A stretch of DNA of 34,083 nucleotides from contig CAYUNL010000008.1 of NCBI GenBank assembly GCA_964446055.1, positions 1 through 34,083 on the forward strand, in the 5' to 3' direction. Each line of letters starts with the position of its first letter. The first letter of the stretch is position 1. Source of the stretch: an uncultured Alphaproteobacteria bacterium. Its GTDB lineage: Bacteria; Pseudomonadota; Alphaproteobacteria; VGEJ01. Positions 3,173 through 17,535 of this stretch are shown piece by piece. Made by a program: the position numbers and the translations under genes. The notes under the pieces were generated by a model that was not told the DNA's origin, searched no databases, and saw only the letters and a list, made by a program, of their open reading frames with translations.

Positions 3173-3197
3173 TACCGCCGTCTCCGCCGGCCGCGGA

Positions 3198-5099
3198 CTA
3201 TTGGGGCTCGCCGAACCAGAAGGTGTCGGGCCGGTAAATCCCGAACTGGGCCCCGGGATCCCAGTTGTAGACCCCTTCGCGCGGCACGTTGCGAAGACGA
3301 TTGGCGACGACGATGGGCTGCATCACCCCGGCGACGATGCCGATCGTGAACATCTCGTCGGCGTGAATTTTCAGCATTCTCTGCCACACCGCCTCGTGCT
3401 CCGCCCGGGTGGCCGCGGCCAGCCAGTCCTCGTTCAACTCAGCAAGCTTGAGCGCCGCGGGCAGGTCCGGCGCCTCGCCCGCGGCGCCACTGGTCTCGAA
3501 GTACTGGCCCCACTTGGGCCATTGCAACGAGTGCTGCATGGTCGGCGCCAGCTCGGCCGGGCTCATGTCGGGCGTCGGCACTCCGTTTTCGAAGCCGCCC
3601 CAGATCGAAACTTGCGTCTCGCCGGAGAAGATTCGGTTGCGAAAGACCTCGCGCTGGGAGGGCTTGGAGAAGAGACGAACGCCAACCTCGGCCCAGCCGT
3701 CACGCACCAGCTCGAGGACGTCGGTTTGCTCGGTATCCTCGCCCGCAGTCTCGACGATGATGTCCATGGCCCGCCCGTCAGGCAACAGCCGCGTGCCGGC
3801 GCCGTCGCGTTCGGTCAGACCCATCTCGTCGAGGAGCCGGTTGGCGGCCTCAATGTCGTATTCAGTCCATGCCGTCTGATACTCATCCCGGAACAGCGGG
3901 CTTGCCGGCAGGACCGTGTTGTTCCCCTCGATGGCGAGCCCGTAGTAGAGCGTCTGGTTGATGAGACTGCGGTCGATGGCCAGCGACAAGGCGCGGCGGA
4001 AGCGAATGTCGCGGAAAACCTCGCGCCAAACCGGGTCGTTGATGTTGAGATTAGGGTAAAGGGCGAGATGGGCGCCCTTGGCCGTCCGCCACAGGTAGGT
4101 CGAGTATTCGTTCCGCTCTTCGTTCGCTTTGAGGAAGGTGAAGTTGTTGAAGAAGATGGCTCGCGACTGAAGGTCGGATTCGCCGGCGCCGGCCTTGGCC
4201 GGAATCAGCTTGCCATCGGCCACCGTCAGAACCACGCGGTCGATGTAGGGAAGCTGGCGACCGGTCTCGTCGACCCGGTGGTAGTAGGGGTTGCGCTCGG
4301 CGATGAAGCGGGTGGAGGGCAGAAACGTGGTGTTCCGCCATGGCTGTAAGGTCGGCAGGTCAGGATTGTCGAAGCGGTACATGTTGTCCACGCGATTGTG
4401 CATCGCCGCCCAGTTGCGCTCGCCGCCCTGGTCGGCCATCGCCGCAAGGTCCTCGGCCGCGGCGTACTCGAGGTGGAAGCGCTTCATGTAGTGGGCCGGG
4501 CGGTAGATGAAGAGCGGCGCGGCGCGCGCGAGCGCCGGCAGGAAGAACGGGTTCGGCCGCGGCCAGGTATAACGGACCGTGGTCTCGTCGATGACCTCGA
4601 AGGTCGGGGCCAGGCCGTCGATGAGCATGTCTTTGGGCGGGCCCGAGGGGGCGAGCTCGGGATTGTTGGCGACGTCCTCCCACCAGTAGCGGAAGTCCTC
4701 GGCGGTGAACGGCGCGCCGTCGGACCAGCGGTGGCCCTTGCGCAGCTTGAGGGTGAAGGCGCGCCGATCCTCGACCTCGACGGCGGCCAGGATGTCGGGC
4801 CGAATCTCGAAACTGCTGTCGTAACCGACGAGCCGTGCGTAGCCGTAGACGACCAAGAGCCGGACATCCTTGGCGCGGCCGACAAGCATTCGAAGATCGC
4901 CACCGTGGCGGCCCGGGGTCGCGACCCCGTCGTCGAAGGTGACGATGCGCGGCTCTTGCGGGACGCGTTCGCTCACCGGCGGGACCTCGCCCGCCGCGAC
5001 GGCCGCTTCGAACGTCGGCGTCTCGATGAGCTCCAGCGCCGCAGCGGGTCCCGCACCCAGCCCAAACGCCGTGACGGCGGCGGCGGCCCATCGCACCAT
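3198..5099 (-). CDS. ABC transporter substrate-binding protein, family 5 (peptide/nickel/opine type), secreted
   Basis: Start chosen at ATG 5097-5099 (MVRWAAAAVTAFGLGAGPAAALE..., a Sec-type signal peptide), 5 nt after the ATPase stop and preceded by GAGGG. 633 aa with typical family-5 SBP sequence (HRWSDGAPFTAEDFRYWWEDV...). Stop TAG at 3198-3200. Confidence 0.85.
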   Translation of the reverse strand: MVRWAAAAVTAFGLGAGPAAALELIETPTFEAAVAAGEVPPVSERVPQEPRIVTFDDGVATPGRHGGDLRMLVGRAKDVRLLVVYGYARLVGYDSSFEIRPDILAAVEVEDRRAFTLKLRKGHRWSDGAPFTAEDFRYWWEDVANNPELAPSGPPKDMLIDGLAPTFEVIDETTVRYTWPRPNPFFLPALARAAPLFIYRPAHYMKRFHLEYAAAEDLAAMADQGGERNWAAMHNRVDNMYRFDNPDLPTLQPWRNTTFLPSTRFIAERNPYYHRVDETGRQLPYIDRVVLTVADGKLIPAKAGAGESDLQSRAIFFNNFTFLKANEERNEYSTYLWRTAKGAHLALYPNLNINDPVWREVFRDIRFRRALSLAIDRSLINQTLYYGLAIEGNNTVLPASPLFRDEYQTAWTEYDIEAANRLLDEMGLTERDGAGTRLLPDGRAMDIIVETAGEDTEQTDVLELVRDGWAEVGVRLFSKPSQREVFRNRIFSGETQVSIWGGFENGVPTPDMSPAELAPTMQHSLQWPKWGQYFETSGAAGEAPDLPAALKLAELNEDWLAAATRAEHEAVWQRMLKIHADEMFTIGIVAGVMQPIVVANRLRNVPREGVYNWDPGAQFGIYRPDTFWFGEPQ

Positions 5100-5104
5100 C
5101 GCCC

Positions 5105-7000
5105 TCACGAGGCTCGAAGCTCTGCCGAGGCCGCGTTCCCCGCGGCGCGCACGAAATGCCCGCCGCCAAGGTCGAGCATGCTGAGCGTCGAGGTGCCGTT
5201 GACGGTGTAGGGGGCCGGCCACGCTGCGGGATCCGAGTGCCGCTCCAGCATCAGCGCGCTAAGGTCGAGACGGTCGTTGGGATCGGGCTTGGGAACCGCG
5301 GCCAGAAGCGCCTTGGTGTAGGGATGCGTCGGGTTGCGGAACAGGAGCTCGCGCGGCGCGTGCTCGACCAGGCGCCCGGCACACATGACGGCGATCGAAT
5401 CGGCGATGTAGTCGACCACCGCCAGGTTGTGCGAAATAAAGAGGTAGGTGAGCTCGAGCTGGTCTTGGAGGTCCTTGAGGAGGTTGAGGACCTGGGCCTG
5501 GATCGAAACGTCGAGCGCCGAGACCGGCTCATCGCAGATCAGGAGGTCCGGCTGCAGGGCGAGCGCGCGGGCGATGCCGATGCGCTGGCGCTGTCCACCA
5601 GAAAAGCTGTGCGGGTAGCGGCGTAGGTAACGGACATCCAGGCCGACAAGGTTCATGAGCTCCTTCACGCGCTCGGAACGCTCGCGCTCGGTGCCGACCC
5701 GGTGAATGACCAGCGGCTCGGAGATGATGTCGAAGACGGTCATACGCGGGTTCAGCGAACTGAAGGGATCCTGAAAAATATACTGGACCTTGTGACGGAA
5801 CGCGGTCAGCGCCTTGCCACGCAGGTTGAGGACATCGACGATGGTGCCGCGGTCGTTGAACTCCACCTCGCCCGAATCGGCGGCCACGGCGCGCATCACG
5901 ATCTTACTGGTGGTGGTCTTGCCACAGCCCGATTCGCCGACCAGCCCGAGGCATTCGCCGCGCCACACCTCGAAGCTCACGTCTTCGACCGCGGTCACCT
6001 CGCCACCGGGTCGACCGCCGAGCACCGAGCGCTTGCGGGTAGTGAAGCGCCTGGTCAGGCTGCGCACCGCCAGCAGTGGGGCGCGGCGGTCGGCGCCGGG
6101 CGGCCACGGCTGCTTGGCCTGCATCAACGGACCGCCCTCGGACTTGATCTCGCGAATCGGCACCAGCCGCTCGCCGGGCGCCATGTCGAACCGCGGCACC
6201 GCGTGCAGGAGCGCGCTGAGGTAGGGATGCTCGGCGTGGCGAAAGATGTCTTCGACCGTGCCGCGCTCCATGACGTTACCCTGATACATGACGACGACGT
6301 CGTCGGCCATGTTGGCGACCACCCCGAGATCGTGGGTGATCATCAGGATCGCCATCTTCAGCTCGGCCTGGAGCTCGTTCATGAGCTTCAGAAGCTGCGC
6401 CTGGATCGTGACGTCGAGGGCGGTGGTCGGCTCGTCGGCGATCAAAATCGCGGGGTGGCAAATCAGCGCCATCGCGATCATCGCCCGCTGGCGAAGCCCG
6501 CCCGAAAGCTCAAAGGGGTAGGTGTTCACGGCCTGTGTAGGGTCGGGGAATCCGACCATCCGCAGCATCTCGCACATCACCTCGAGCCCCTCGGCGCGGG
6601 GCGCGTCGTGGTGCAGGTAAAAGGCCTCGGAGATCTGGTTGCCGACCGTGTGCAACGGCGAGAGCGAGGTCATCGGCTCCTGGAAGATGATCGAGATACG
6701 GCGCCCCCTGATCCCGCGCATGGCGCGGCCGTCGACCGCAAGCGTGGCGATATCGACGACCGGTCCGGGATTCTTGGGGTCGCAGAAGTGGATCGACCCG
6801 CCGGCGATTCGCGCGACCTTCGGTAAGATCCCCATGATCGCCTGGCTGACCACCGACTTGCCCGAGCCCGACTCGCCCACCAAGGCCAGGGTCTTGCCCT
6901 CGGGGATGCGGAAGGAAACCCCGTCCACCGCCTTGATGAGCCCTTCGGGCAAGTCGAAGTGGACCTTGAGGTCCTTCACCTCCAAGACGTTGGCCATCAC
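5105..7000 (-). CDS. ABC transporter ATP-binding protein, fused duplicated ATPase (DppD/DppF-fusion, YejF-like)
   Basis: 631 aa with two complete NBDs. NBD1: [31 protein letters not shown]2: [28 protein letters not shown]. The start is GTG 6998-7000 (4-nt overlap with the upstream stop) or ATG 6995-6997 (1-nt overlap). Confidence 0.92.
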
Positions 7001-7505: not shown

Positions 7506-8285
7506 TTAGAGGGTAAAGATTTTCGCCAGCGATGGCCAGCGTACCGAGCCATGTCCGCGGGTGCGGGCGGCGAACTTGGCAAGGAACGCCCACGCCGCCT
7601 CGTCGTGCACGAGGTGATGGGTGAGGATACCGAGGGGGCGCGCCTCGGCAGCGCCGCGAAGCATCACCAGGCGCGCGACGATGGCCTCGAGCGCCGCCGC
7701 CTCGCCGACGAACGCCCTGCTCCCGCGCCAGTCGACAATGTCGACGTCGGCATCGCGGCGTTGCAGGCCGGCAACCGACAATGGCGCCACCGCCGATGCG
7801 GTGATGGTGCTAAGGCCGCGATAGCCGGCCCCGGGAAGCCGCGGGATCAGAGCGTCGGCGATGCGGTTCCACGGAGGCACCAGCACCGGCATCGCCCGCG
7901 CCCCGAAAAGCTCCACGGTCACCGACCAGGCGCGACCCAGCTCCTCGATCACGGCATCGGGGTCGCGGCCAGGCGGGAACTCGGCCTTCTTCTCGCCGGG
8001 CGGCGCGTGATTGTGGTGCGCATAGCCGTGCGGCACCGCGACCAGGCCCTCGGACGCCGCGGCGATTCGCGCGGCCAGCGCCGGTCCCGCGGCCGCGGGA
8101 ATGACTGCCAGGCAGAGCGGCAGCTCGGCCTCGCCCGTAAGATCGATCAAGCGCGCGAGCGCCGTCGTCGGCTCGGCGGCGTCGTCATCGCGCAACCAGA
8201 GATCGAGCGCGCGGCCCGCGCCGGCCCATGCATCGAGCTCTTCGGCGAGCGCTCGCCAACCTACCACGGCACCGCCTCGGCCCAC
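7506..8285 (-). CDS. polysaccharide deacetylase-like (NodB-homology/CE4-like) protein
   Basis: 259 aa. Motifs reminiscent of NodB motifs: LRDDD (cf. TFDDG), HGYAHHNH (His pair), LVPPWN (cf. RPP.G) and ILTHH. GTG start at 8283-8285 (alternative GTG at 8265-8267). Either start overlaps the 3' end of the upstream GT gene. Confidence 0.6.
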   Translation of the reverse strand: MGRGGAVVGWRALAEELDAWAGAGRALDLWLRDDDAAEPTTALARLIDLTGEAELPLCLAVIPAAAGPALAARIAAASEGLVAVPHGYAHHNHAPPGEKKAEFPPGRDPDAVIEELGRAWSVTVELFGARAMPVLVPPWNRIADALIPRLPGAGYRGLSTITASAVAPLSVAGLQRRDADVDIVDWRGSRAFVGEAAALEAIVARLVMLRGAAEARPLGILTHHLVHDEAAWAFLAKFAARTRGHGSVRWPSLAKIFTL

Positions 8286-9421
8286 TCCTCGACCAGCGCC
8301 GCGCTACGCTCGGCGCCGCCGGTATCCAGCTCGCCCGAGTGCCCAGGCGGGGCATCGATCGCCGTCTCGACGGCGGCGGCGAGCCTTGCGGGGGTCAGTG
8401 CGGCCTCGTCCAAGACGTGGATCGCGCCGCGCGCTTCGAGCGCCCTGGCGCGCAGCGTTTGCTCGGTCTCGATGCCGCCGGCGTAGGGAACGACGATGGC
8501 GCGCGCCCCGGCGTCGAGCAGCTCCATCACCGTGTTGTAGCCGCCTTGGCTGATCGACAGCGCGCAGTTCATGAGCAGGCTGGTAAAGTCGGCGCGGGCG
8601 CGCTCGACGACGACGCCATCGGGTGCCACGGCGCGCAGCGATTCGAAATCCGCCGCGCTGACCGAGACGCCGACGAGCACCCGCCACCGGCTCGATTTCA
8701 GCCGGGTCTTGGCGCGAGCGGCGATCGCGGTTTGCAAAAGCGCGAGCCCGACCGCGCCGCCGCCCGCCGAGACCACGACTTCGCCGTCGCCCGGGCTGCC
8801 GGGGCCGCCGCGCTTGCCGGTGCGGTCCACCACGTAGCCGGTGTAGGCGATCTTGCCGGCGATTCGGGCGGCGTGCGGAAACGTGCGCTCGAAGGGCACC
8901 AAGCTCGGATCGCCGTGGACCAGGACGCGGTCGAAGTAACCTTCGATGAGGCCGAGCATCTCGTCGTTGCGCCCGGGTTTGTGCTGGGCAACCAGGATAT
9001 CGCGGACCGACGAGGCGATGCATGGCCGGTGAGGGCCGGCGACCGCGGCATCGAGCAGGGGCACGATTTCGAAGCGTAATTGGCGGCGACCAAAGGGGAA
9101 GAGCTCGAACAGAAGTACATGAGGCCGATACTCGAGCCACGCCTTGTGCAGCGCCTCGCGGCGGCGCGCCCGCCACGAATCGTCGATGGCGGCATCGTTG
9201 TCATCGACCAGCACCTTGAAATAGAGATCGGTCGCGCGGGTCGGCGGCAGCTGAATGAACCGCGCCGAGGCAACGTCGAGGCCCGGGACATCGTGGCCGC
9301 CCGAGACCAGGGCGACGTCGAGCCCCGCCGCGGTAAAGGCGCGGGCAAGTGTGGCGGCGCGCCTGAGATGGCCGATCCCCAGCAGGTGCTGAACGTAGAA
9401 GAAGACCCGGCGGCGGCTCAT
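8261..9421 (-). CDS. glycosyltransferase, GT-B fold (GT28 C-terminal-domain/MurG-like; N-terminal GIGHLRR motif)
   Basis: 386 aa. N-terminus RRVFFYVQHLLGIGHLRR. C-terminal half has VVSAGGG...SISQGGYNTVMELL, typical of the MurG/UDP-glycosyltransferase C-domain. Paralog of 12456..13703. The ATG forms an ATGA overlap with the phosphatase stop. Confidence 0.75.
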   Translation of the reverse strand: MSRRRVFFYVQHLLGIGHLRRAATLARAFTAAGLDVALVSGGHDVPGLDVASARFIQLPPTRATDLYFKVLVDDNDAAIDDSWRARRREALHKAWLEYRPHVLLFELFPFGRRQLRFEIVPLLDAAVAGPHRPCIASSVRDILVAQHKPGRNDEMLGLIEGYFDRVLVHGDPSLVPFERTFPHAARIAGKIAYTGYVVDRTGKRGGPGSPGDGEVVVSAGGGAVGLALLQTAIAARAKTRLKSSRWRVLVGVSVSAADFESLRAVAPDGVVVERARADFTSLLMNCALSISQGGYNTVMELLDAGARAIVVPYAGGIETEQTLRARALEARGAIHVLDEAALTPARLAAAVETAIDAPPGHSGELDTGGAERSAALVEEWAEAVPW

Positions 9422-10020
9422 CGCGGCTCTCCGCGGCGAACCAATGGCTCGTTGAACCGCTCGGCTCGCACCTCACCCCCGCCATCGAGCACGAAGAGGT
9501 GGGCACACACCCACTCGAGCCGGACGGGTGGCCTTCCGATCATGTCCCAGCCCAGGGCAAGCGCGAAAACCGCACGGATCACCCCTTTGTGGGTGACCGC
9601 TACGGTTGGCGTTTTCGCCCGCCCGACTTCGCGTAGCCAGGGCGCCAGACGGGTTTGTACATCGCGTGGGCTTTCGCCGCGCGGCGGCGTGAAGTCGAGG
9701 CCACGGTCCTCGTTTTCGCGCATGGCAGGGCCCAACTCGTCGCGGAGCTCCGCCAGCGTCCGGCCCTCCCACGCCCCCCAGTCCATTTCGATCAGCCGCG
9801 GCTCGGTTCGCAGCTCATCGGCCCCAAGCAGCTGCGCGGTCTCGGTGGCGCGCCGGAGCGGGCTCGAAACCCACGCCGCGCCGTCCAGCCCAGGCGGCGG
9901 TCCGAGCCCTTCGAAGTCGCCTCGGCCGCGCCCGGAAAGCGGGATGTCGGCGCGGCCCTGAATACGTCCGGCCTGGTTCCACGCCGTGGCGCCGTGGCGG
10001 ATCAACCCCAGCAAGGTCAT
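9418..10020 (-). CDS. histidine phosphatase (phosphoglycerate-mutase-like) family protein
   Basis: Start MTLLGLIRHGAT at ATG 10018-10020 (ATGA overlap with the GT4 stop). Has the RHG catalytic motif and a second His in VTHKGVIRA. 200 aa. Confidence 0.8.
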   Translation of the reverse strand: MTLLGLIRHGATAWNQAGRIQGRADIPLSGRGRGDFEGLGPPPGLDGAAWVSSPLRRATETAQLLGADELRTEPRLIEMDWGAWEGRTLAELRDELGPAMRENEDRGLDFTPPRGESPRDVQTRLAPWLREVGRAKTPTVAVTHKGVIRAVFALALGWDMIGRPPVRLEWVCAHLFVLDGGGEVRAERFNEPLVRRGEPR

Positions 10021-11162
10021 CGCGCGCAGGCCCGCCGGAGGGCACCATCGAGCCGTTCGCCGGCGCGAGCCAGGGTCCGGTCGGCGCCGATCCACGCCCG
10101 AGCCGTTTGGCCCATGCGGCGGCGCAGGCCGGCATCCTCGATCAGCGCCTGGAGGCGCTCGGCGAAAGCATCCGGCGCCGCGCCGGCAACCAGGAAGCCG
10201 GTCTTGCCATCGCAGACGACGTCGCGGACGCCGCCGTCATCGCCAGCGACCACGGGCAGTCCGGCCGCCTGGGCCTCGAGCATGGCCATCCCATAGGCCT
10301 CGTTGACGGCAGGCCATGCGTAGATGTCGGCAGCCGCGAAGACCGCCGGCATCTCCGCCGCGGCCAGCGCCCCGGCGAACACCACCCGGCGCGAGCCAAA
10401 CCCGGCGAACGCCGCTTCGACTTCGGCGCGGGCTTCGCCCTCACCGACCACGATGAGTCGCCAGTCGTCGCGGCTGAGCCGCACCAGCGCCTCGGCAAGT
10501 CGACGGTAGGAATGGAGCTTGTCGCCCGCCCGCATCATGCCGACCGCCAGCAGCCACACCGCGTCTTCGTCCAGCGCCCATTTTCGCGCGAACGACGCGC
10601 GTGCGGCCTCGCGGCCGGAAGCGGCGGCGGCGAAGGGATCGTGGTCGAGGAATGGCGGTAGATGAACAAGCCGGTCGGGCGCGGCGACGATGGCGCGCAC
10701 GCAGTTCATGTCGAGCGCGGTCATGCACAAGACCGCGTCGGCCCGGGCGATCGCCGCCGCCGCCGCCTCGTGCCCGCGCCGCCAGATTCCTTGGGCGCGC
10801 TTTGGCGCATGGGAGGCCTCGGCCACGACATACGCGATCCCAAGGCCACGCGACACCGCCGGGCCGATCCAGTCGGGCGCCCGATAGTAGAGGTGGTAAG
10901 TGAACCAAAGCTCGGGGCGTGCCTCGGGCGCGACCAGGCGGTAGCCTGTCAGCAGAGCGGCGGCCTCGATTTCGCCGACCGCCTGCAGCGCCTGTTGGCC
11001 GGCGCCGTCGGGTGAGCGGTCGTAGCTGCGAAAGCTCGAGGCGAGCGTAACCGTGTGTCCGGCCGCGCGAAGCGCCTCCATGATCAGGCTCGCCATCGCC
11101 CGGTCGCCCGAGGCCACCGGGTGCGTCGGGGCCTTCAGCGGCGCGTAGAACGCGATGCGCAC
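10017..11162 (-). CDS. glycosyltransferase family 4 (GT-B, group 1)
   Basis: GTG start at 11160-11162 (VRIAFYAPLKAPTHPVASGDR...), 1 nt after the upstream TGA (11164-11166). C-terminal motif NEAYGMAMLEAQAAGLPVVAGDDGGVRDVV is a typical EX7E-type GT4 region. 381 aa. Confidence 0.8.
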   Translation of the reverse strand: MRIAFYAPLKAPTHPVASGDRAMASLIMEALRAAGHTVTLASSFRSYDRSPDGAGQQALQAVGEIEAAALLTGYRLVAPEARPELWFTYHLYYRAPDWIGPAVSRGLGIAYVVAEASHAPKRAQGIWRRGHEAAAAAIARADAVLCMTALDMNCVRAIVAAPDRLVHLPPFLDHDPFAAAASGREAARASFARKWALDEDAVWLLAVGMMRAGDKLHSYRRLAEALVRLSRDDWRLIVVGEGEARAEVEAAFAGFGSRRVVFAGALAAAEMPAVFAAADIYAWPAVNEAYGMAMLEAQAAGLPVVAGDDGGVRDVVCDGKTGFLVAGAAPDAFAERLQALIEDAGLRRRMGQTARAWIGADRTLARAGERLDGALRRACAR

Positions 11163-11163
11163 G

Positions 11164-12447
11164 TCAAGCGCCGCCGGCCCCGGAAACCGCCGCCCTGCCG
11201 AGGGGTGCCGCATCCGCGCCACCGGTATCGGGCGCGAACAACCGGGCCAGCCGGTCGATGCCGTCGGCGACATCGAAGTGGGTGCGGACGCGTATCTCGC
11301 CGGCCCGGCCCAGCGCACGACGGCGCTGAGGATCGGCGATGAGCTCGCCGAGCGCCGCCGCCATTGCTCCCACGTCGCCGGCCGCGACGAGCCGGCCGGT
11401 CACGCCATCCTCGATGAGTTCGGGGATTGCCGCGCTTGCGGTCGAGACGCAGGCCAGTGCTTGGCTCTGGGCCTCGACCAGCACGTTGGGCAGGCCGTCG
11501 CGGTCACCGTCGCGGGCGGTTCGGCTCGCCAGCACGAAGAGGTCGGATTGGCGGTAGCTTTCGAGCACCGCGTCATGGGGTTGCGCACCGTGCCACTCAA
11601 TGCGCGAGGCGAGACCGAGGCGCCGCGCCCGGCGCTTGAGACGGTCGAGTAGCGGTCCGCCCCCGACATGATCGAGACGCCAGTGGAGGGCCGGCGGCAA
11701 TCGGGAGAGCGAAGTCAGAAGATCGTCGTAGCCCTTCTTGGGCACGGCGCGGCCGATCGAGACCAGGCGCACGGGGTCGGCTGCGTCGGTCCCGTCGCGG
11801 TTGTACGCGGGTGCGGGATTCGGGGGAAAACGGTCGGGGTCGAGCCCGTGATAGACGAGGTGCACGCGGCCCGGCGGGGCGAGGGTCGCCAGTTGATCGG
11901 CGTTGAGCGCGCTACACGCGGCGCACCAGGCGCAATCGTCGAGTTTTTCGGCCTTCTCCCACTGTGGAATCGTCCATACGTCTTTGGCGTGGGCCGAGAC
12001 GCTCCACGGCAGACCGGTCAGGAGACTGGTATAGCGGGCGACGGAACCGGGCGTGTGCAAGAAATGAGCGTGGAGATGGGTCACCGTCGGCTCGATCTCA
12101 TGCGCAAGCACCAGCGCCTGGCCGAATCGGCGCACCCGGTTGGGACTCGGATCGCGTGCGAGATCGCGAAGCCAAAGCGTGCGCGCCGCCGTATAGGCGG
12201 GCCGACGACGCAGCGCGCGCCACGCCCCGAGGACGCGCATCGGCTCGCGGAACAGATACTCCGGGAGGTAGCGGACCGGGGCCACGATTGTCTCGTGAAT
12301 CGGGTGGGTATGGGCGTCGCCGGGCTGGCGCAGCGAGACGATGACGATCCTTAGGCCGCGCTGCTCGAGCGCGTGAATCTCTTGGGAGATGAAGGTCTCG
12401 GACAGCCGGGGATAGCCCTTGACGATAAAGGCGTAGGTTCCCGGCAT
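11164..12447 (-). CDS. glycosyltransferase family 4 (WcaL/AmsK-like)
   Basis: Start MPGTYAFIVKGYPRLSETFISQEI at ATG 12445-12447, 8 nt after the upstream stop (spacer contains AAGG). C-terminal DGLPNVLVEAQSQALACVSTASAAIPELIEDGVTG is a GT4 signature. Confidence 0.8.
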   Translation of the reverse strand: MPGTYAFIVKGYPRLSETFISQEIHALEQRGLRIVIVSLRQPGDAHTHPIHETIVAPVRYLPEYLFREPMRVLGAWRALRRRPAYTAARTLWLRDLARDPSPNRVRRFGQALVLAHEIEPTVTHLHAHFLHTPGSVARYTSLLTGLPWSVSAHAKDVWTIPQWEKAEKLDDCAWCAACSALNADQLATLAPPGRVHLVYHGLDPDRFPPNPAPAYNRDGTDAADPVRLVSIGRAVPKKGYDDLLTSLSRLPPALHWRLDHVGGGPLLDRLKRRARRLGLASRIEWHGAQPHDAVLESYRQSDLFVLASRTARDGDRDGLPNVLVEAQSQALACVSTASAAIPELIEDGVTGRLVAAGDVGAMAAALGELIADPQRRRALGRAGEIRVRTHFDVADGIDRLARLFAPDTGGADAAPLGRAAVSGAGGA

Positions 12448-12455
12448 CGGGACCT

Positions 12456-13703
12456 TCAGGCGGGGCGGCGAATGCGCTCGGGCGCGGACCCGGTCCTGCC
12501 GAGCCACGGCGCGGCGAGACGATTGACGTTGTCGAGGCCCTCGAGGAGGCCGGGAACCACGACCTTGGACGGCCGGCGCTGACCGGGAAGGGCGCGCAAC
12601 GCCCGCGCCATGATCTCGGGATCATACTCGCCGTCGTCGTTCAGCATGCGGACCAGACCCAGTTCCTGGGCGCGTGAGGCGCGGATGAACTGCTCGCGCC
12701 GAGGCACCGTCCGCGGCACGATGAGCGCACGTTTGTCGAGCGAGAGTATCTCGCAGAAGGTGTTGTAGCCGCCCATCGCCACGATCGCGGCGGCGCGCGC
12801 CTCGAGCTCCTCCATGTGGGGGCTGAAGGTGATGGCGTCGAGGCGCGCCAGCGACGCGGCGCGGCGCTTGAACTCCGCCTGCTGCTCGGGCGCCATGAAC
12901 GGGCCCAGCACCATCAGCGCTGGATAGGGCAGCATGGGCTCGCTTTCGTAGGCGCGCAGAACCCACTCGATGAGGCCGACGCCATCACCGCCGCCACCGG
13001 TGGTGACCAAAAGGTAGGGCTTGCGGGCGATCTCGGGGAGCGGCGCCGCGGTGGCCGAGCGCGCCACCGCGCGCGGCAGATAGCCGGTGTAGACGATCCG
13101 TCGGCGGATCGAGGCGGGCATGCCGATCTCGGCCAAGGGTTCGCAAATCTGCGGCAGCCCGTAGATCCAGATTTCGTCGTACAAATCCTCCAGCGCGGGC
13201 AGGACCTTCTTGCGCTCCCATTCCGGCCCCAGCAGCGCCGGCTCGTCCAAGACGTCGCGGAGGCCGAGAACCAACCGCGTGCCGCGCGTCTTGAGCAGTT
13301 TGAGCGTGTCGTGGACCTCGCCGCGAAGGCCCAGCGGCTCTTTGTCGACGATGAAGATGTCGGGATCGAAGATCTCGGCGGTGTGCTGGATGATCGAGGC
13401 CCGCATCGATAGGGTCTGTTCGACGTCGATGTGGAGGTTGAGCGCCGTGTATTCGCCGTTGCGCAGCTTGATCACGCCGGGAACGCGCACGAAATCGACC
13501 CGCGCGCGGAAGTCGAATCGTCCGATGATCGGGGAGCCCGACAGAATCAGCGCCGACAGCTGCTTGTGGTTCTCGACGAGCGAGTTGGCGATGGTCAGGC
13601 AGCGCCGCAGATGCCCGAGCCCGAAGGTGTCATGGCTATAGATAAGGACGCGCGCCACACCATCGGCGCCGGGGCGGCTGCCCGCGGTGACCTCCTTTAG
13701 CAT
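12456..13703 (-). CDS. glycosyltransferase, GT-B fold (GT28 C-terminal-domain/MurG-like; N-terminal GLGHLRR motif)
   Basis: ATG at 13701-13703 (MLKEV...). The track ORF starts at an upstream TTG (13725-13727); the true start is uncertain. Contains RVLIYSHDTFGLGHLRR and ...LLVTTGGGGDG...VAMGGYNTFCEILS. First gene of the minus-strand operon. Confidence 0.75.
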   Translation of the reverse strand: MLKEVTAGSRPGADGVARVLIYSHDTFGLGHLRRCLTIANSLVENHKQLSALILSGSPIIGRFDFRARVDFVRVPGVIKLRNGEYTALNLHIDVEQTLSMRASIIQHTAEIFDPDIFIVDKEPLGLRGEVHDTLKLLKTRGTRLVLGLRDVLDEPALLGPEWERKKVLPALEDLYDEIWIYGLPQICEPLAEIGMPASIRRRIVYTGYLPRAVARSATAAPLPEIARKPYLLVTTGGGGDGVGLIEWVLRAYESEPMLPYPALMVLGPFMAPEQQAEFKRRAASLARLDAITFSPHMEELEARAAAIVAMGGYNTFCEILSLDKRALIVPRTVPRREQFIRASRAQELGLVRMLNDDGEYDPEIMARALRALPGQRRPSKVVVPGLLEGLDNVNRLAAPWLGRTGSAPERIRRPA

Positions 13704-13817
13704 GGGCGCACTATGGCATACCCCCAAGCGCGGCCAAAAGCCAATTGTTGGGGCAAATGCCGACGTTTACCGCGCTGCCCGCCTACGATAAGCTCTCGCC
13801 CGCGCCGCACCGGGTAG
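13704..13817. promoter_or_regulatory. divergent intergenic region that must carry promoters for the GT operon (leftward) and the ABC-exporter unit (rightward)
   Basis: It is the only non-coding gap between the two divergent units. Only weak short inverted repeats (CCAATTGTTGG, GGCAAATGCC) are visible. I could not call a convincing -35/-10 or Crp-type site. Confidence 0.4.
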
Positions 13818-16526
13818 ATGATCGTGCGTCGGGGAAACCGACCGAGCCACCCCATGGAACCATCGATCTTCAAGTTCGTCATTCGATATAGTCTGCGCCA
13901 GCAGGTGTTCCTTACGGTGATGGCGGCGCTTTCGTTTCCCTTCCTGTACGCCTTCTATGAGCTGCCCAAACAGATCGTAAACGGCGCGATCCAAGCCGAC
14001 GGGGCCGACTTTCCGAAGTCTCTGATCCCCGATTTCATCGCCCCGGACGCGCTGCCGCTCGACCACCTGCCCTTCCTCTTCGTGCTGTGCGCGCTGTTCC
14101 TGGTCCTGGTGGTCGTGAATCAGGGCTTCAAGTACTACGTTAACGTCTACCGCGGGCTCACCGGCGAGCGCATGCTGCGACGGCTTCGCTATGAGCTCTA
14201 TAGCCGGGTTTTGCGCTTCCCCCTTCCCACCTTCCGCAAGGTCAGCCAGGGCGAGATCATTCCGATGATCACCGCCGAGGTCGAACCACTGGGCGGGTTC
14301 ATTGGCGAGGCCTTCTCGCTGCCCGCCTTTCAGGGCGGAACGCTGCTGGTGATCGTGACCTTCCTGTTCATCCAGAGCCCGCTGATGGCAGCCGCGGCGA
14401 TCGCACTCTACCCGCTTCAGATGTACCTGATTCCCAAGCTTCAGCGCCGCGTAAACATGCTGGGAAAGGAGCGCGTTCGCCTGGTCCGCCGGCTGTCGGA
14501 CCGGATCGGCGAAACCGTCCAGGGCGTGCAAGAGGTGCATACCCACGACACCTCGAACCTCGAACTCGCGAACTTCACCGACCGGCTGGGCTCGATCTTG
14601 GACGTTCGCTACAAGATTTACCGATTGAAGTTCGTCATCAAGTTCCTGAACAACTTCATTCAGCAGCTTGGACCCTTCTTCTTCTATTCGATCGGTGGCT
14701 ATCTGGTGATCACTGGGGGCCTCGATATCGGCACGCTGATCGCCGCAATCGCCGCCCAGAAGGATCTCGCCTCGCCGTGGAAGGAGCTGTTGAACTACTA
14801 CCAGCGAATGGAGGATTCGCGGATCAAGTACGAACAGGTCGTGACTCAGTTCGCGCCCAGCGGAATTCTCGACGCGAGCCATCAGCTCGACACCCCCGAG
14901 AAAGTCGAGCCCCTGTCGGGCGACGTCGCCGCGGCCAACGTGACGCTGACCGACGATCAAGACAACGCGGTCATCGACGGAGTCTCGTTTAAGATCGACG
15001 TCGATCGCCACGTCGCCATCGTCGGCACGGGCGCCAGCGGCAAGGAGGATTTGGCGCTTCTGATGGCGCGGCTCATCGCGCCCAGCAAGGGTACGTTTTC
15101 GGTCAACGGCCAAGGCATGGAGGGAATGCCCGAGGCAATCACCGGGCGGCGCATCTCGTACGTTGGCCCCTCGGGCTTCATCTTTGCGGCGAGCTTCGGC
15201 GAGAACCTGTTCTACGGGCTCAAGCACCGGCCCATGGTCGAGCCCACCTACGAGGGTGAGGCGGCCGCGAAATGGGCGAATCATCTCACGGAAGCCAAGG
15301 CGGCGGGCAACATCACCCATAACCTTGGCGCCGACTGGATCGACTACGCCGCGGCAGGGGTCGACGGGATGGAGGCACTGCGGGTGGAGGCCCTGCGCAT
15401 CTTGAGGCTGGTCGACCTCGGCCCCGACATCTATCAGCTTGGCTTGCGCGGCACCATCGACCCCGCCGCACATTCCGATCTTGCGGAGACCTTCTTGCGC
15501 GCCCGCGCCGCGCTGCGCGAGCGCAGCGCGGATTCGGAGATCGCCTCGCTGGTCGAGTTGTTCGATCGCAGTCTCTACAACACCAACGCGACGGTCGGAG
15601 AGAACGTGCTGTTTGGCAGCCCCAAGGGCGATGCCTTCGACATGGACAGCCTGGCCGAGAACGATTACGTGCTCTTGGTGCTGGAGAAGGTCGGCTTGAC
15701 CGAGATCATGGTCTCGATCGGCTACCAGGTCGCCGCAACGATGGTCGAGCTGTTCGCCGACCTACCGTCGGATCACGAGTTCTTCCAGAAGTTCAGCTTC
15801 ATCAGCGCCGAGGACCTGCCTGAATTCCAGGCCCTGTTGACGCGGGCCGACAAGGACAATCTCGATCAGCTGTCGGCCGAGGATCGAACCCGTCTCTTGT
15901 CGCAGCCCTTCAAGCTGGTTCCGGTGCGTCACCGCCTCGGCCTCATCGACGAGGAGATGCAGGGGCGGCTGTTGGAGGCACGCGCCGCCTTCGCCGAGGG
16001 ATTGCCCGAAGAGCTTACGGATTCGATCGAGTTCTACGACGCCGAGCGATACAACGCCTCGGCCAACCTGCAGGACAATATCCTGTTCGGCAAGATTGCC
16101 TACGGCGAGGCGAAGTCGGCGGAACGCGTCGGCACGCTGATCTCGGAGGTCATCAATGAGTTGGGGCTCGAGGACACGGTCGGACTCGTGGCCTTCGACT
16201 TCGAGGTCGGAATCGCGGGATCGCGCCTGTCCGCGGCGCAGCGCCAGAAGCTGGCCTTGGCCCGCGGCATCCTAAAGCGGCCCGATGTCTTGATCTTGTC
16301 CGAAGCCACCCAGACCCTCGATTCGGCCGCCCAGGCCAGGATCATGCGCAACATCTTGCAGGAGTTCAAAGGCCGCGGCGTGATCTGGGCGCTGCACGAT
16401 CCCGACGTGGCCAAGGAGTTCGATCACATCTTGGTAATGAAAAGCGGCAAGATTGCGGAGCAGGGAAGCCACACCGACCTCGACAAGGACGGCACGGTGT
16501 ATAATGGCTTGATGGCGGCGGAATGA
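13818..16526 (+). CDS. ABC exporter, fused TMD-NBD half-transporter with expanded, motif-degenerate NBD
   Basis: 902 aa (alternative ATG at 13854). The N-terminal ~330 aa has about 6 hydrophobic helices of ABC_membrane type. Walker A GTGASGKE at 15024-15047, signature LSAAQ at 16227-16241, Walker B VLILSE at 16287-16304, H-loop His at 16395-16397. Confidence 0.85.
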   Translation: MIVRRGNRPSHPMEPSIFKFVIRYSLRQQVFLTVMAALSFPFLYAFYELPKQIVNGAIQADGADFPKSLIPDFIAPDALPLDHLPFLFVLCALFLVLVVVNQGFKYYVNVYRGLTGERMLRRLRYELYSRVLRFPLPTFRKVSQGEIIPMITAEVEPLGGFIGEAFSLPAFQGGTLLVIVTFLFIQSPLMAAAAIALYPLQMYLIPKLQRRVNMLGKERVRLVRRLSDRIGETVQGVQEVHTHDTSNLELANFTDRLGSILDVRYKIYRLKFVIKFLNNFIQQLGPFFFYSIGGYLVITGGLDIGTLIAAIAAQKDLASPWKELLNYYQRMEDSRIKYEQVVTQFAPSGILDASHQLDTPEKVEPLSGDVAAANVTLTDDQDNAVIDGVSFKIDVDRHVAIVGTGASGKEDLALLMARLIAPSKGTFSVNGQGMEGMPEAITGRRISYVGPSGFIFAASFGENLFYGLKHRPMVEPTYEGEAAAKWANHLTEAKAAGNITHNLGADWIDYAAAGVDGMEALRVEALRILRLVDLGPDIYQLGLRGTIDPAAHSDLAETFLRARAALRERSADSEIASLVELFDRSLYNTNATVGENVLFGSPKGDAFDMDSLAENDYVLLVLEKVGLTEIMVSIGYQVAATMVELFADLPSDHEFFQKFSFISAEDLPEFQALLTRADKDNLDQLSAEDRTRLLSQPFKLVPVRHRLGLIDEEMQGRLLEARAAFAEGLPEELTDSIEFYDAERYNASANLQDNILFGKIAYGEAKSAERVGTLISEVINELGLEDTVGLVAFDFEVGIAGSRLSAAQRQKLALARGILKRPDVLILSEATQTLDSAAQARIMRNILQEFKGRGVIWALHDPDVAKEFDHILVMKSGKIAEQGSHTDLDKDGTVYNGLMAAE

Positions 16527-16547
16527 GCCCGCCCGAGGAGAGTTACG

Positions 16548-17003
16548 GTGAGCCTTAACGAAGAGGTCGAGCTGCTGCGCAATATTCCGCTGTTTAGCAA
16601 GATCGAGCCCTCGAAGCTGAAGCTCTTGGCATTCACGAGCGAGAGGCTGACCTTTCACAAGGACCAGGACTTGTGCGTCGAGGGCGAAATGGGCGACGCG
16701 GCATTCATCATTATCGACGGCGGCGCCGACGTCATCGTTTCGACACCCAGCGGGCCGCTCAAGGTCACCGAGGTGGCCAAGAACGACTTCGTCGGCGAGA
16801 TCTCGATCCTTCGTGATGTGCCGCGAACGGCGACCGTGACGGCGTCCTCGGACTGCACCGTCTTGCGCATCTCGAAGGACTTGTTCTTCCGGCTCGTGAG
16901 CGAGTTTCCCGAGATGGCGGTTGAGATCATGCGTGAGCTGGCCCGGCGATTGGAGAACACGACGATCCAGCTACGGGAGGCGACGACCGCCGCTTCCCAT
17001 TAG
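16548..17003 (+). CDS. stand-alone cyclic nucleotide-binding (cNMP/CAP-effector) domain protein
   Basis: 151 aa. GTG start preceded by GAGGAG (16535-16540). Contains LLRNIPLFSKIEPSKLKLLA, and a phosphate-binding cassette FVGEISIL...RTATVTA (16788-16838) with the conserved Arg-Thr-Ala. No HTH or other output domain. Confidence 0.85.
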   Translation: MSLNEEVELLRNIPLFSKIEPSKLKLLAFTSERLTFHKDQDLCVEGEMGDAAFIIIDGGADVIVSTPSGPLKVTEVAKNDFVGEISILRDVPRTATVTASSDCTVLRISKDLFFRLVSEFPEMAVEIMRELARRLENTTIQLREATTAASH

Positions 17004-17016
17004 ATCGGCCGACCCG

Positions 17017-17535
17017 ATGAGCCGGCTCGACAGCTTCATCCGGCGGACCATGGCGCAACGCGATTGCCTTGGCGAGGCGGCCCGATTGATCGCCGCGATA
17101 CCCGGGCCGGTGCTGGAATTCGGTCTCGGCAACGGCCGCACCTACGATCACCTTCGGACGCTGCTGCCGGAGCGGGAGATTTTCGTATTCGACCGCCAGA
17201 TCGCCGCTCACCCCGAGTGCATCCCCGATCCCGAGCACATGGTGCTGGGCGATATCCACGACACCGTGCCCGCCGCGCGAGCCCGCATTCCCGAGCCCGC
17301 GGCGCTGGCCCATTGCGATGTCGGCACCGGGGACAAAGAGGCCTCGGCGGCGCTTGCGGCGTGGCTGGCACCGCTGCTCAAGCCGCTATTGGCCCCTGGC
17401 GCGGTCGTCGTTTGCGATCAGGAGGCACTTTGGTGCGAAGGCTTCTCGCGGCTTCCGCCGCCGGAGGGCGTCCCCGAGGGGCGCTATTTCATGCTGCGGT
17501 TGGGGCCCGCATCGGCGGGCCGGGATTCGCCCTAG
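17017..17535 (+). CDS. small class I methyltransferase-fold protein (putative)
   Basis: Start MSRLDSFIRR at ATG 17017, 13 nt after the cNMP gene stop. Gly-rich motif-I-like VLEFGLGNGRTYDHL. 172 aa. Functional assignment is weak. Confidence 0.45.
   Translation: MSRLDSFIRRTMAQRDCLGEAARLIAAIPGPVLEFGLGNGRTYDHLRTLLPEREIFVFDRQIAAHPECIPDPEHMVLGDIHDTVPAARARIPEPAALAHCDVGTGDKEASAALAAWLAPLLKPLLAPGAVVVCDQEALWCEGFSRLPPPEGVPEGRYFMLRLGPASAGRDSP

What the first reader, a model, noticed from the sequence alone, without database searches (positions are those of the whole stretch)
15150..16241. ABC exporter NBD expanded by about 300 residues through reiteration of a helical-subdomain-like segment
Walker A (GTGASGKE, nt 15024-15047) and the signature motif (LSAAQ, nt 16227-16241) are about 395 residues apart. 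In canonical ABC exporters the spacing is roughly 100 residues. Within the intervening stretch, the short motif that normally follows the Q-loop ([GQ][ED]N[LVI][LF][FY]G) occurs three times. The copies are FGENLFYG (15195-15218), VGENVLFG (15594-15617) and LQDNILFG (16068-16091). Copies 2 and 3 also share the upstream context (LFDRSLYNTNATVGENVLFG vs FYDAERYNASANLQDNILFG). They share a downstream V/L-x-x-VGL-type helix as well (VLEKVGLTEI vs INELGLEDTV). Only copy 3 runs into a signature motif. This looks like an internal triplication of the alpha-helical subdomain, which I do not recognise from characterised ABC transporters.
Basis: seen in the sequence. Interest (0 to 1): 0.75.

Follow-up and report, generated by a model that had tools for sequence, protein, structure and literature searches.

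The report
ABC exporter with triplicated helical-subdomain segment
This is a real, widely conserved alphaproteobacterial ABC-exporter-like protein whose ATP-binding domain carries three copies of the segment that normally links it to the membrane domain; its classical ATP-hydrolysis residues have decayed across the family, and it is always paired with a cyclic-nucleotide sensor, so it may be controlled in an unusual way.

Summary
ORF 13818-16526 (+) encodes 902 aa, with the probable start at M13. It is an ABCB-like half-transporter. Walker A (aa 403-410) and the signature LSAAQ (aa 804-808) lie about 395 residues apart, roughly 297 more than in ABCB4.

The extra sequence is not an artefact, not disordered and not a known domain. 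Family profile-profile alignments show three homologous units, each made of a strand, the Q-loop position, ENxxFG, two helices and an X-loop-like turn. The E-values are 7.6e-15, 2e-7 and 2e-6; controls give 0.01 or worse. Unit 1 carries a 50-aa insertion and unit 2 a 79-aa extension, both without detectable relatives.

The architecture recurs in hundreds of alphaproteobacterial genomes and in 258 rhizobial plasmid records. The insert alone finds 886 protein clusters. Neither Pfam nor solved structures match the insert, no NCBIfam model reaches its cut-off on the whole protein, and four literature searches found no description.

Two further findings:
- The ATP-site residues are non-canonical here (GKE, LILSEAT) and largely lost across the family.
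- A stand-alone cyclic-nucleotide-binding protein follows the gene in 77/80 loci and is fused to it in longer homologues, within a conserved glycosyltransferase and Opp-like importer neighbourhood.

The most likely reading is a cyclic-nucleotide-regulated glycoconjugate exporter with a remodelled NBD. It is a new variant of a known kind.

The parts
13818..16526 (+). ORF of 902 aa: an ABCB-like half-transporter with an expanded NBD. The probable true start is M13 (nt 13854).
   Evidence: ORF; PF00664 aa 85-311, split PF00005; M13 invariant, homologues 883-890 aa; Foldseek of the full model hits type IV ABC exporters, E 1e-17 to 1e-19.
13854..14852 (+). Transmembrane domain (aa 13-345), the most conserved part of the protein.
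   Evidence: (44 of 333 positions >= 90% conserved across members of 27-100% identity).
14913..15152 (+). N-terminal part of the NBD core (aa 366-445). Walker A is GTGASGKE (nt 15024-15047), with Glu where Ser/Thr is canonical. The A-loop position is Asp379.
15123..15473 (+). Unit 1 (aa 436-552): LPE-like lead-in, strand ISYV at canonical distance from Walker A, a Q-loop position without Gln (VGPSG), FGENLFYG, a unit-specific 50-aa insertion (aa 468-517, nt 15219-15368), two helices and a GLRG turn.
15474..15497 (+). Start of the helix that leads into unit 2 (AlphaFold2 helix aa 553-570, running on into the unit 2 part, sequence ...RARAALRE...). An equivalent helix (aa 712-727, LEARAAF) precedes unit 3.
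   Evidence: blastp 38% identity over 39 aa between the contexts of copies 2 and 3.
15498..15755 (+). Unit 2 core (aa 561-646): strand VEL, VGENVLFG, helices including VLEKVGLTEI, and an IGYQ turn.
   Evidence: against unit 3: E 7.6e-15, probability 98.4%; [VLI][AG]ENLLFG is close to invariant across the family.
15756..15992 (+). Helical extension specific to unit 2 (aa 647-725). It is conserved (F646, R706 and R722 >= 95%) and has no detectable relatives.
15993..16217 (+). Unit 3 (aa 726-800): strand IEF, LQDNILFG, two helices and the X-loop. It runs at canonical spacing into the signature motif.
16227..16397 (+). C-terminal catalytic motifs: signature LSAAQ (16227-16241), Walker B VLILSE (16287-16304; Ser replaces the canonical Asp, the catalytic Glu is kept) and H-loop His860 (16395-16397).
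16548..17003 (+). Stand-alone cyclic-nucleotide-binding protein (151 aa). Its phosphate-binding cassette FVGEISILRDVPRTATV is intact and it has no DNA-binding domain. It is the inferred regulatory partner.
   Evidence: PF00027, 9.5e-17; directly downstream in 77/80 loci; fused to the C-terminus in all 16 tested homologues >= 1010 aa; sequence.
7506..13727 (-). Divergently transcribed conserved gene set: GT28-like, GT4, GT4, histidine phosphatase, GT28-like and an unknown 259-aa ORF. These are the inferred makers of the transported glycoconjugate.
   Evidence: domains; synteny 73, 70, 64, 58, 69 and 53 of 80 loci; the same set in S. medicae pSMED01.

Best explanation
ORF 13818-16526 encodes a member of a large, undescribed alphaproteobacterial family of type IV (ABCB-like) ABC half-transporters. 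An ancient internal triplication has expanded the NBD. The repeated piece runs from the Q-loop strand, through the ENxxFG element, to the X-loop. ENxxFG is the counterpart of CFTR E504-G509, which contains F508. Unit 1 stays attached to the Walker A half of the core and unit 3 to the signature/Walker B half. Unit 1's tail, unit 2 and two unit-specific helical additions make up the ~297-residue insert (shown). The family has relaxed or lost the classical ATP-hydrolysis residues, while the membrane domain and the three units stay conserved (shown). I infer three steps. First, the protein moves a glycoconjugate made by the adjacent glycosyltransferases across the inner membrane. Second, the extra helical units form a docking surface for the co-encoded cyclic-nucleotide-binding protein, which gates NBD closure and transport. 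Third, in the window protein a modified site (GK-E, LILS-E, His present) may still bind or slowly hydrolyse ATP. My confidence is about 0.85 for the architecture and its origin, and about 0.4 for regulated export.
For: Repeat homology: hhalign E 7.6e-15, 2.1e-7 and 1.8e-6 against controls >= 0.01; blastp 38% identity over 39 aa between the contexts of copies 2 and 3; the same secondary-structure order three times, with pLDDT 73-94 (mostly above 80) across the insert. Canonical halves: ABCB4 and Pfam alignments split at aa 473/792, and both halves match profile positions 62-80. Conservation: the 120 best homologues are 874-941 aa and 59-91% identical. Invariant residues run throughout the insert. 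The insert alone finds 886 clusters at 50% identity. At least 592 species-level genome hits were found, with nearly all of the 80 retrieved loci labelled Alphaproteobacteria, plus 258 rhizobial plasmid records. Exporter fold: Foldseek E ~1e-18 to P-gp, HlyB, TmrAB and PCAT1. Partner: the CNB ORF lies downstream in 77/80 loci and is fused in 16/16 long homologues. There is precedent for a cNMP domain required for ABC exporter function in HetC (PMC10986499). Cargo: the GT28-like/GT4/GT4/phosphatase/GT28-like set is syntenic in 58-73 of 80 loci and in Sinorhizobium. Motif decay.
Against: No experiment bears on this, and no substrate is known. The insert modelled alone is only moderately confident (pTM 0.55) and matches nothing in the PDB. 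So the claim that the extra units are helical-subdomain-like modules rests on sequence profiles and secondary structure alone. Contact between the CNB protein and the insert is inferred only from co-occurrence and from a fusion at the C-terminus, not from a fusion at the insert. Loss of Walker A Lys, Walker B Asp/Glu and H-loop His in many members, for example S. medicae, argues against ATP-driven export as the family's shared mechanism. The glycosyltransferases are divergently transcribed, so co-regulation is not shown.
Confidence: 0.6

Rival explanations
1. The protein is no longer a transporter. It is a pseudo-ABC signalling or scaffold protein. The membrane domain and remodelled NBD would sense or transmit cyclic-nucleotide status to the glycosyltransferases or to the neighbouring Opp-like importer, with no ATP-driven export.
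For: Only 3 of 76 diverse members keep GK[ST] plus DE, and 27 of 76 lack both the Walker A Lys and the catalytic Glu. The S. medicae orthologue has GGTSGGGE, FYIFNQ and Ala at the H-loop. None of the NBD positions >= 95% conserved is a catalytic residue. Some members carry CNB and GGDEF-like fusions. An Opp-like importer is syntenic.
Against: The membrane domain is the most conserved region (44 of 333 positions >= 90%) and the type IV exporter fold is retained, which suits a translocation pathway. The window protein and its close clade keep Lys409, Glu829 and His860. Placement beside glycosyltransferases is typical of exporters.
Confidence: 0.25
2. The insert is an unrelated acquired domain. 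The three ENxxFG motifs are convergent or coincidental short matches rather than the trace of a duplication.
For: HMMER does not match unit 2 or the whole insert to Pfam ABC_tran. The insert profile finds no ABC protein among PDB sequences. Foldseek of the insert-only model finds no NBD. Residues 468-517 and 647-725 resemble nothing.
Against: Profile-profile alignments extend over 66-82 columns, including the flanking strand and two helices, far beyond the 8-residue motif. Their E-values are five to thirteen orders of magnitude better than the reversed or unrelated controls. The order of secondary-structure elements is the same in each unit. A chance motif match occurs in 18 of 200,000 shuffles.
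Confidence: 0.07
3. The long ORF is an assembly or frameshift chimera of two ABC genes.
For: None beyond the unusual length and the split Pfam match.
Against: A single uninterrupted ORF. It is 91% identical over 99% of its length to a protein on a 3.76-Mb contig with the same neighbours. The same ~880-900-aa architecture is present in all 80 retrieved genome loci, which include isolate genomes of Azospirillum, Sneathiella, Nisaea and Zavarzinia, out of at least 592 hits. It is also present on Sinorhizobium plasmids. There is only one Walker A, one signature and one Walker B.
Confidence: 0.01

Closest known systems
Type IV (ABCB-like) homodimeric half-transporters such as MsbA, Sav1866 and HlyB
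   Same: One ABC_membrane domain followed by one NBD. The predicted fold matches these exporters. The best NCBIfam partial hits are MsbA, TAP2 and HepA. Like many polysaccharide or lipid exporters, it is encoded beside glycosyltransferases.
   Different: The NBD is about 297 residues longer, with a triplicated Q-loop/helical-subdomain segment. Walker A reads GK-E, Walker B reads S-E, the Q-loop Gln is absent and the signature is LSAAQ. It scores far below every curated family cut-off (MsbA 191.5 against 602 bits).
ABC exporters with a degenerate nucleotide-binding site (TM287/288, TmrAB, TAP1/2, CFTR)
   Same: Non-consensus residues in Walker B, the H-loop and the signature. The ENxxFG element corresponds to CFTR ENIIFG, which contains F508 at the NBD-coupling-helix interface (own knowledge of the CFTR sequence).
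   Different: Those are heterodimers or single chains that keep one consensus site. Here a single gene encodes the only NBD in the conserved neighbourhood. If the protein acts as a homodimer, both sites would be non-canonical, and in many family members clearly dead.
ABC ATPases with large insertions between Walker A and the signature (UvrA, Rad50/SMC, ABCF 'arm', eEF3 chromodomain)
   Same: A large insertion sits in the same topological position of the ABC fold, between the Q-loop region and the signature motif (own knowledge).
   Different: Those are soluble proteins, and their inserts are unrelated modules such as coiled coils, zinc modules, an arm or a chromodomain. They are not reiterations of the NBD's own helical-subdomain segment. 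None matched the insert by sequence or fold.
ABC exporters associated with cNMP-binding domains (HetC; NHLM/bacteriocin-type transporters, TIGR03896/TIGR03797)
   Same: A cyclic-nucleotide-binding-fold module is coupled to an ABC exporter. In HetC the domain is required for function (PMC10986499). The window's CNB protein weakly matches TIGR03896.
   Different: In those systems the domain is N-terminal on peptidase-containing peptide exporters with canonical NBDs. Here it is a separate downstream protein or a C-terminal fusion, and the NBD is expanded and degenerate.

Membership tests
ABC exporter, type IV fold (Pfam ABC_membrane + ABC_tran) | Six-helix ABC_membrane transmembrane domain N-terminal to the NBD | tested here: met
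   PF00664, E 4.8e-21, aa 85-311; Foldseek E ~1e-18 to P-gp, HlyB, TmrAB and PCAT1.
ABC exporter, type IV fold (Pfam ABC_membrane + ABC_tran) | Walker A GxxGxGK[ST] | tested here: not met
   GTGASGKE: the glycines and Lys are present but Glu replaces Ser/Thr. The close clade has GK[E/D/N]. Lys is present in only 41/78 diverse members.
ABC exporter, type IV fold (Pfam ABC_membrane + ABC_tran) | Q-loop glutamine after the core strand | tested here: not met
   ISYVGPSG: Pro/Ser at the aligned position. Gln is at that position in 17/78 members.
ABC exporter, type IV fold (Pfam ABC_membrane + ABC_tran) | Signature LSGGQ about 100 residues after Walker A | tested here: not met
   The variant LSAAQ is present, but it starts 401 residues after the start of Walker A, with 393 residues between the two motifs. 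ABCB4 has 21 residues where this protein has 318.
ABC exporter, type IV fold (Pfam ABC_membrane + ABC_tran) | Walker B hhhhDE and H-loop His | tested here: inconclusive
   VLILSE: Asp is replaced by Ser and the catalytic Glu is kept; His860 is present. Family-wide, Asp occurs in 16/78, Glu in 42/78 and His in 20/78.
MsbA (TIGR02203) and other curated exporter equivalogs (HepA, CydDC, NdvA/ChvA, HlyB) | Whole-protein score above the curated NCBIfam cut-off | tested here: not met
   The best hit, MsbA, scores 191.5 bits against a cut-off of 602. All 25 listed families fall below their cut-offs and match in two separated stretches.
S. meliloti MsbA2 polysaccharide-export operon (SMb21188-21191) | Orthology to msbA2 and its operon | tested here: not met
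   The pSymB region 930-955 kb gives only short generic NBD matches of 82-144 aa. The operon composition also differs (PMC3687685).
Heterodimeric ABC exporters with one degenerate site | A second, consensus NBD supplied by a partner gene or second half | tested here: not met
   No second exporter-type ABC gene lies in the window neighbourhood or in the called genes of the closest relative's locus. Partners encoded elsewhere were not excluded.
cNMP-regulated proteins (CNB domain partner) | CNB fold with an intact phosphate-binding cassette (G-E ... R-[ST]-A) | tested here: met
   PF00027, 9.5e-17. The sequence FVGEISILRDVPRTATV is present here and in S. medicae. Ligand binding itself was not testable.

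The most novel reading that the evidence does not exclude
This is a family of ABC-exporter-fold membrane proteins that has given up ATP hydrolysis at both sites of a presumed homodimer. Cyclic-nucleotide control has replaced it, exerted through a CNB partner that docks on a triplicated helical subdomain. That would amount to a ligand-gated facilitator or flippase for a glycoconjugate, a bacterial parallel to the evolution of CFTR from pump to gated channel.
Probability: 0.2. Interest if true: 0.85.

Novelty: new variant of a known kind. Interest (0 to 1): 0.62.

Why it matters
The NBD is the most stereotyped module of ABC transporters. An exporter in which its TMD-coupling segment, the part that contains the CFTR-F508 equivalent, is present three times is outside the described repertoire. 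So is one in which the catalytic residues are dispensable across hundreds of species. The family occurs in well-studied plant-associated bacteria (Azospirillum, Sinorhizobium, Rhizobium), so it is genetically tractable. It could show how ABC folds are repurposed for regulation, how cyclic nucleotides control envelope glycoconjugate export, and what the helical subdomain contributes apart from ATP-site formation. It also marks about 280 conserved residues that neither Pfam nor solved structures match and that no NCBIfam model covers.

Tried and rejected
- Known domain in the insert: no hit in Pfam at E <= 10 on three insert pieces, with the insert profile against PDB sequences, or with Foldseek of an insert-only AlphaFold2 model (best E 1.3).
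- Disorder or low complexity: rejected, because pLDDT is 73-94 (mostly above 80) across the insert and many residues are invariant.
- Chimera or frameshift: rejected by conservation.
- Identity with S. meliloti MsbA2: rejected.
- Annotation of the Sinorhizobium plasmid loci: the PLSDB tables were empty there, so I called ORFs and domains myself.
- Literature: four full-text searches on NBD insertions, cNMP-linked ABC exporters and the pSymB cluster found no description of this family. Database names are generic, for example 'ABC transporter ATP-binding protein/permease'.
- Homology of the unit-specific pieces (aa 468-517 and 647-725) to each other or to other parts of the protein: none.
- 3D packing of the three units: not possible, because the tools return no coordinates. 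I judged a covariation analysis unreliable with about 250 sequences and did not run it.
- Two-unit evolutionary intermediates: none among the best 150 representative hits, where every full-length protein is >= 850 aa. Weaker hits were not listed.
Full report
**1. Observation**

The window holds one uninterrupted ORF at 13818-16526 (+), 902 aa. Walker A GTGASGKE is at aa 403-410 and the signature LSAAQ at aa 804-808. The motif copies are FGENLFYG (aa 460-467), VGENVLFG (aa 593-600) and LQDNILFG (aa 751-758).

Pfam finds ABC_membrane (aa 85-311) and a split ABC_tran. NCBIfam models of MsbA, TAP, HepA, CydDC, HlyB and others all match in two separated stretches and far below their cut-offs.

Against solved structures, query 384-473 aligns with ABCB4 410-499 and query 792-897 with ABCB4 521-626. 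The query therefore has 318 residues where ABCB4 has 21. The C-terminal Pfam stretch starts at profile position 62. In relatives the N-terminal stretch ends at position 80. So the post-Q-loop region of the profile is matched twice.

**2. Real and conserved**

- The 120 best database relatives are 874-941 aa long and 59-91% identical over 97-100% of the query, apart from one 915-aa entry that covers 72%.
- A 51-sequence alignment has invariant residues throughout aa 470-745, including E492, N498, W507, G542-L543-R544, R563, E595-N596, F599-G600, H653, R704-H705 and Y745.
- The insert alone (aa 470-745) finds 886 clusters at 50% identity with E <= 1e-3. The full-length proteins among the best 150 hits are mostly 850-1206 aa, with the insert mostly at about residues 450-725.
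- A genome scan found at least 592 species-level hits. Nearly all of the 80 retrieved loci are labelled Alphaproteobacteria, including Azospirillum, Sneathiella, Nisaea, Zavarzinia, Thalassobaculum, Stellaceae and Geminicoccaceae.
- The insert also occurs in 258 plasmid or chromid records of Rhizobium, Sinorhizobium, Ensifer, Ruegeria and others.
- The closest relative (91% identity) lies on a 3.76-Mb contig with the same neighbours.

An assembly or frameshift chimera is excluded.

**3. What the insert is**

I cut family sub-alignments (78 members, 27-100% identical to the window protein) into three segments and compared them with hhalign.

| Comparison | Probability | E-value | Aligned columns |
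|---|---|---|---|
| aa 561-725 vs aa 726-800 | 98.4% | 7.6e-15 | 66 |
| aa 436-560 vs aa 726-800 | 93.6% | 2.1e-7 | 73 |
| aa 436-560 vs aa 561-725 | 89.8% | 1.8e-6 | 82 |

Eighteen control comparisons used reversed segments, TMD pieces, the Walker A region and the C-terminal NBD. All gave E >= 0.01 and probability <= 4%.

The aligned unit has these parts:
- a lead-in (LPE...);
- a short strand (ISYV / VELF / IEFY);
- the Q-loop position;
- the ENxxFG element;
- two helices (the second pair being ...VLEKVGL... / ...VINELGL...);
- a Gly-containing turn (GLRG / IGYQ / FDFEVG), which in unit 3 is the X-loop preceding LSAAQ.

Plain blastp already gives 38% identity over 39 residues between the contexts of copies 2 and 3.

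The AlphaFold2 model built from the 51-sequence alignment has mean pLDDT 79, with 73-94 (mostly above 80) across the insert. It shows the same strand, short helix, strand, helix, helix order three times. The whole model matches type IV ABC exporters.

Two pieces are unit-specific. They are aa 468-517 inside unit 1 and aa 647-725 after unit 2. They match nothing in the protein, in Pfam or in PDB sequences. An insert-only model (pLDDT 77, pTM 0.55) has no Foldseek match better than E 1.3.

- the signature helix is not part of the repeat;
- about 130 of the ~297 extra residues are novel additions;
- I could not verify the 3D packing of the units, because coordinates are not returned.

ENxxFG corresponds to CFTR E504-N-I-I-F508-G (my own knowledge of that sequence). 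This is the NBD element that contacts the domain-swapped coupling helix. The aromatic residue is kept in all three units (Y466, F599, F757).

**4. Decay of the ATP site**

The window protein has GK-E in Walker A instead of GK-S/T. It has LILS-E in Walker B instead of hhhhD-E. It has no Q-loop Gln, Asp at the A-loop position, and LSAAQ as signature, but it keeps His860.

Its close clade shares GK[E/D/N] together with S-E. This could be a compensating exchange of the two Mg-site residues, but the pattern follows the clade, so I cannot separate it from shared ancestry.

Across 76-78 diverse members:
- the Walker A Lys is present in 41;
- the Walker B Asp is present in 16 (Asn 34, Ser 18);
- the catalytic Glu is present in 42;
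- the H-loop His is present in 20.

Only 3 members keep GK[ST] plus DE. Twenty-seven lack both the Lys and the Glu.

The S. medicae orthologue (39% identity over 891 aa) reads GGTSGGGE, FYIFNQ and Ala at the H-loop, yet it keeps all three ENxxFG/DNxLFG units.

The NBD positions that are >= 95% conserved are G425, R563, N596, G600, G635, F646, R706, R722, N754, G758, G798, G801 and R816. None is catalytic. The TMD is the most conserved region. Selection in this family therefore acts on the membrane domain and the repeated units, not on canonical catalysis.

**5. Genomic context**

The next ORF (16548-17003) is a 151-aa stand-alone cyclic-nucleotide-binding protein. Its phosphate-binding cassette is intact and it has no DNA-binding domain. 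It lies directly downstream in 77 of 80 loci.

All 16 tested homologues of 1010 aa or more carry this domain fused to their C-terminus. Two of them add a GGDEF-like domain. This gene-fusion pattern is strong evidence for a physical or functional partnership.

The divergent genes are GT28-like, GT4, GT4, histidine phosphatase, GT28-like and an unknown 259-aa ORF. They are syntenic in 53-73 of 80 loci. S. medicae pSMED01 has GT28-like, GT4 and GT28-like genes, then the ABC gene and the CNB gene, all on one strand. An intervening 224-aa ORF there is unrelated to the window's 259-aa ORF.

An Opp/Dpp-like importer (window 972-7000) is also syntenic. None of these genes reaches a curated functional family cut-off. 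The cluster is not the S. meliloti msbA2 operon.

**6. Mechanism**

Shown:
- an exporter fold;
- a triplicated Q-loop/helical-subdomain unit;
- decayed catalytic motifs;
- an obligate CNB partner;
- a glycosyltransferase neighbourhood.

Inferred:
- the protein translocates a glycoconjugate made by the neighbouring enzymes;
- the CNB protein controls NBD closure in response to a cyclic nucleotide, probably by docking on the extra units, which present additional F508-like grooves;
- ATP plays at most a modified role in the window's clade and probably none in clades such as Sinorhizobium.

HetC is a precedent for a cNMP-fold domain required for ABC exporter function (PMC10986499). The main rival is that the family no longer transports and serves instead as a signalling scaffold. 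The data here cannot decide between these.

**7. Novelty**

Databases label these proteins generically. No Pfam model or solved structure matches the insert, and no NCBIfam model reaches its cut-off on the whole protein. Four full-text searches found no description.

Large insertions at this topological position are known in soluble ABC ATPases such as UvrA, Rad50/SMC, ABCF and eEF3 (own knowledge). Those inserts are foreign modules, not reiterations of the NBD's own segment. I rate this a new variant of a known kind, with interest 0.62.

Noticed in passing
window 15024-15047, 16287-16304; L081:7525-10302: The classical ATP-site residues are non-canonical here (GK-E, LILS-E, no Q-loop Gln, Asp at the A-loop). 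Across the family they are largely lost. Only 3 of 76 diverse members keep GK[ST] plus DE. The S. medicae orthologue lacks the Walker A Lys, the Walker B Asp/Glu and the H-loop His.
   Followed up: yes
window 16548-17003 (+): A stand-alone 151-aa cyclic-nucleotide-binding protein with an intact phosphate-binding cassette and no HTH. It lies directly downstream in 77/80 loci and is fused to the ABC protein's C-terminus in all 16 tested long homologues, two of which add a GGDEF-like domain.
   Followed up: yes
window 972-7000 (-): An Opp/Dpp-like ABC importer (OppC-like permease, SBP_bac_5, fused double ATPase) lies next to the glycosyltransferase genes. Its ATPase gene appears at the edge of about 49 of 80 related loci, and the OppB/OppC genes abut the GT genes in S. 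medicae. The importer may belong to the same functional unit.
   Followed up: partly
window 7506-8285 (-): A 259-aa ORF with no Pfam or NCBIfam match, conserved in 53 of 80 related loci at the far end of the glycosyltransferase set. The 224-aa ORF at the equivalent place in S. medicae is not detectably related to it.
   Followed up: partly
window 13818-13853: The listed ATG start is probably 12 codons too early. M13 (nt 13854) is invariant and homologues are 883-890 aa.
   Followed up: partly
window 16921-17535 (+): The Methyltransf_17 (SAM methyltransferase) ORF overlaps the end of the CNB gene as listed. The relative's gene is 168 aa and starts after the CNB stop, so the real start is probably further downstream. 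It is syntenic in 49 of 80 loci.
   Followed up: no
window 14001-17000: The ABC/CNB genes have lower G+C (0.605-0.645) than the adjacent glycosyltransferase genes (0.69-0.72).
   Followed up: no
window 13767-15473 (-): A 568-aa antisense ORF overlaps the ABC gene. It is most likely a high-G+C artefact, because the conserved protein is on the + strand.
   Followed up: no
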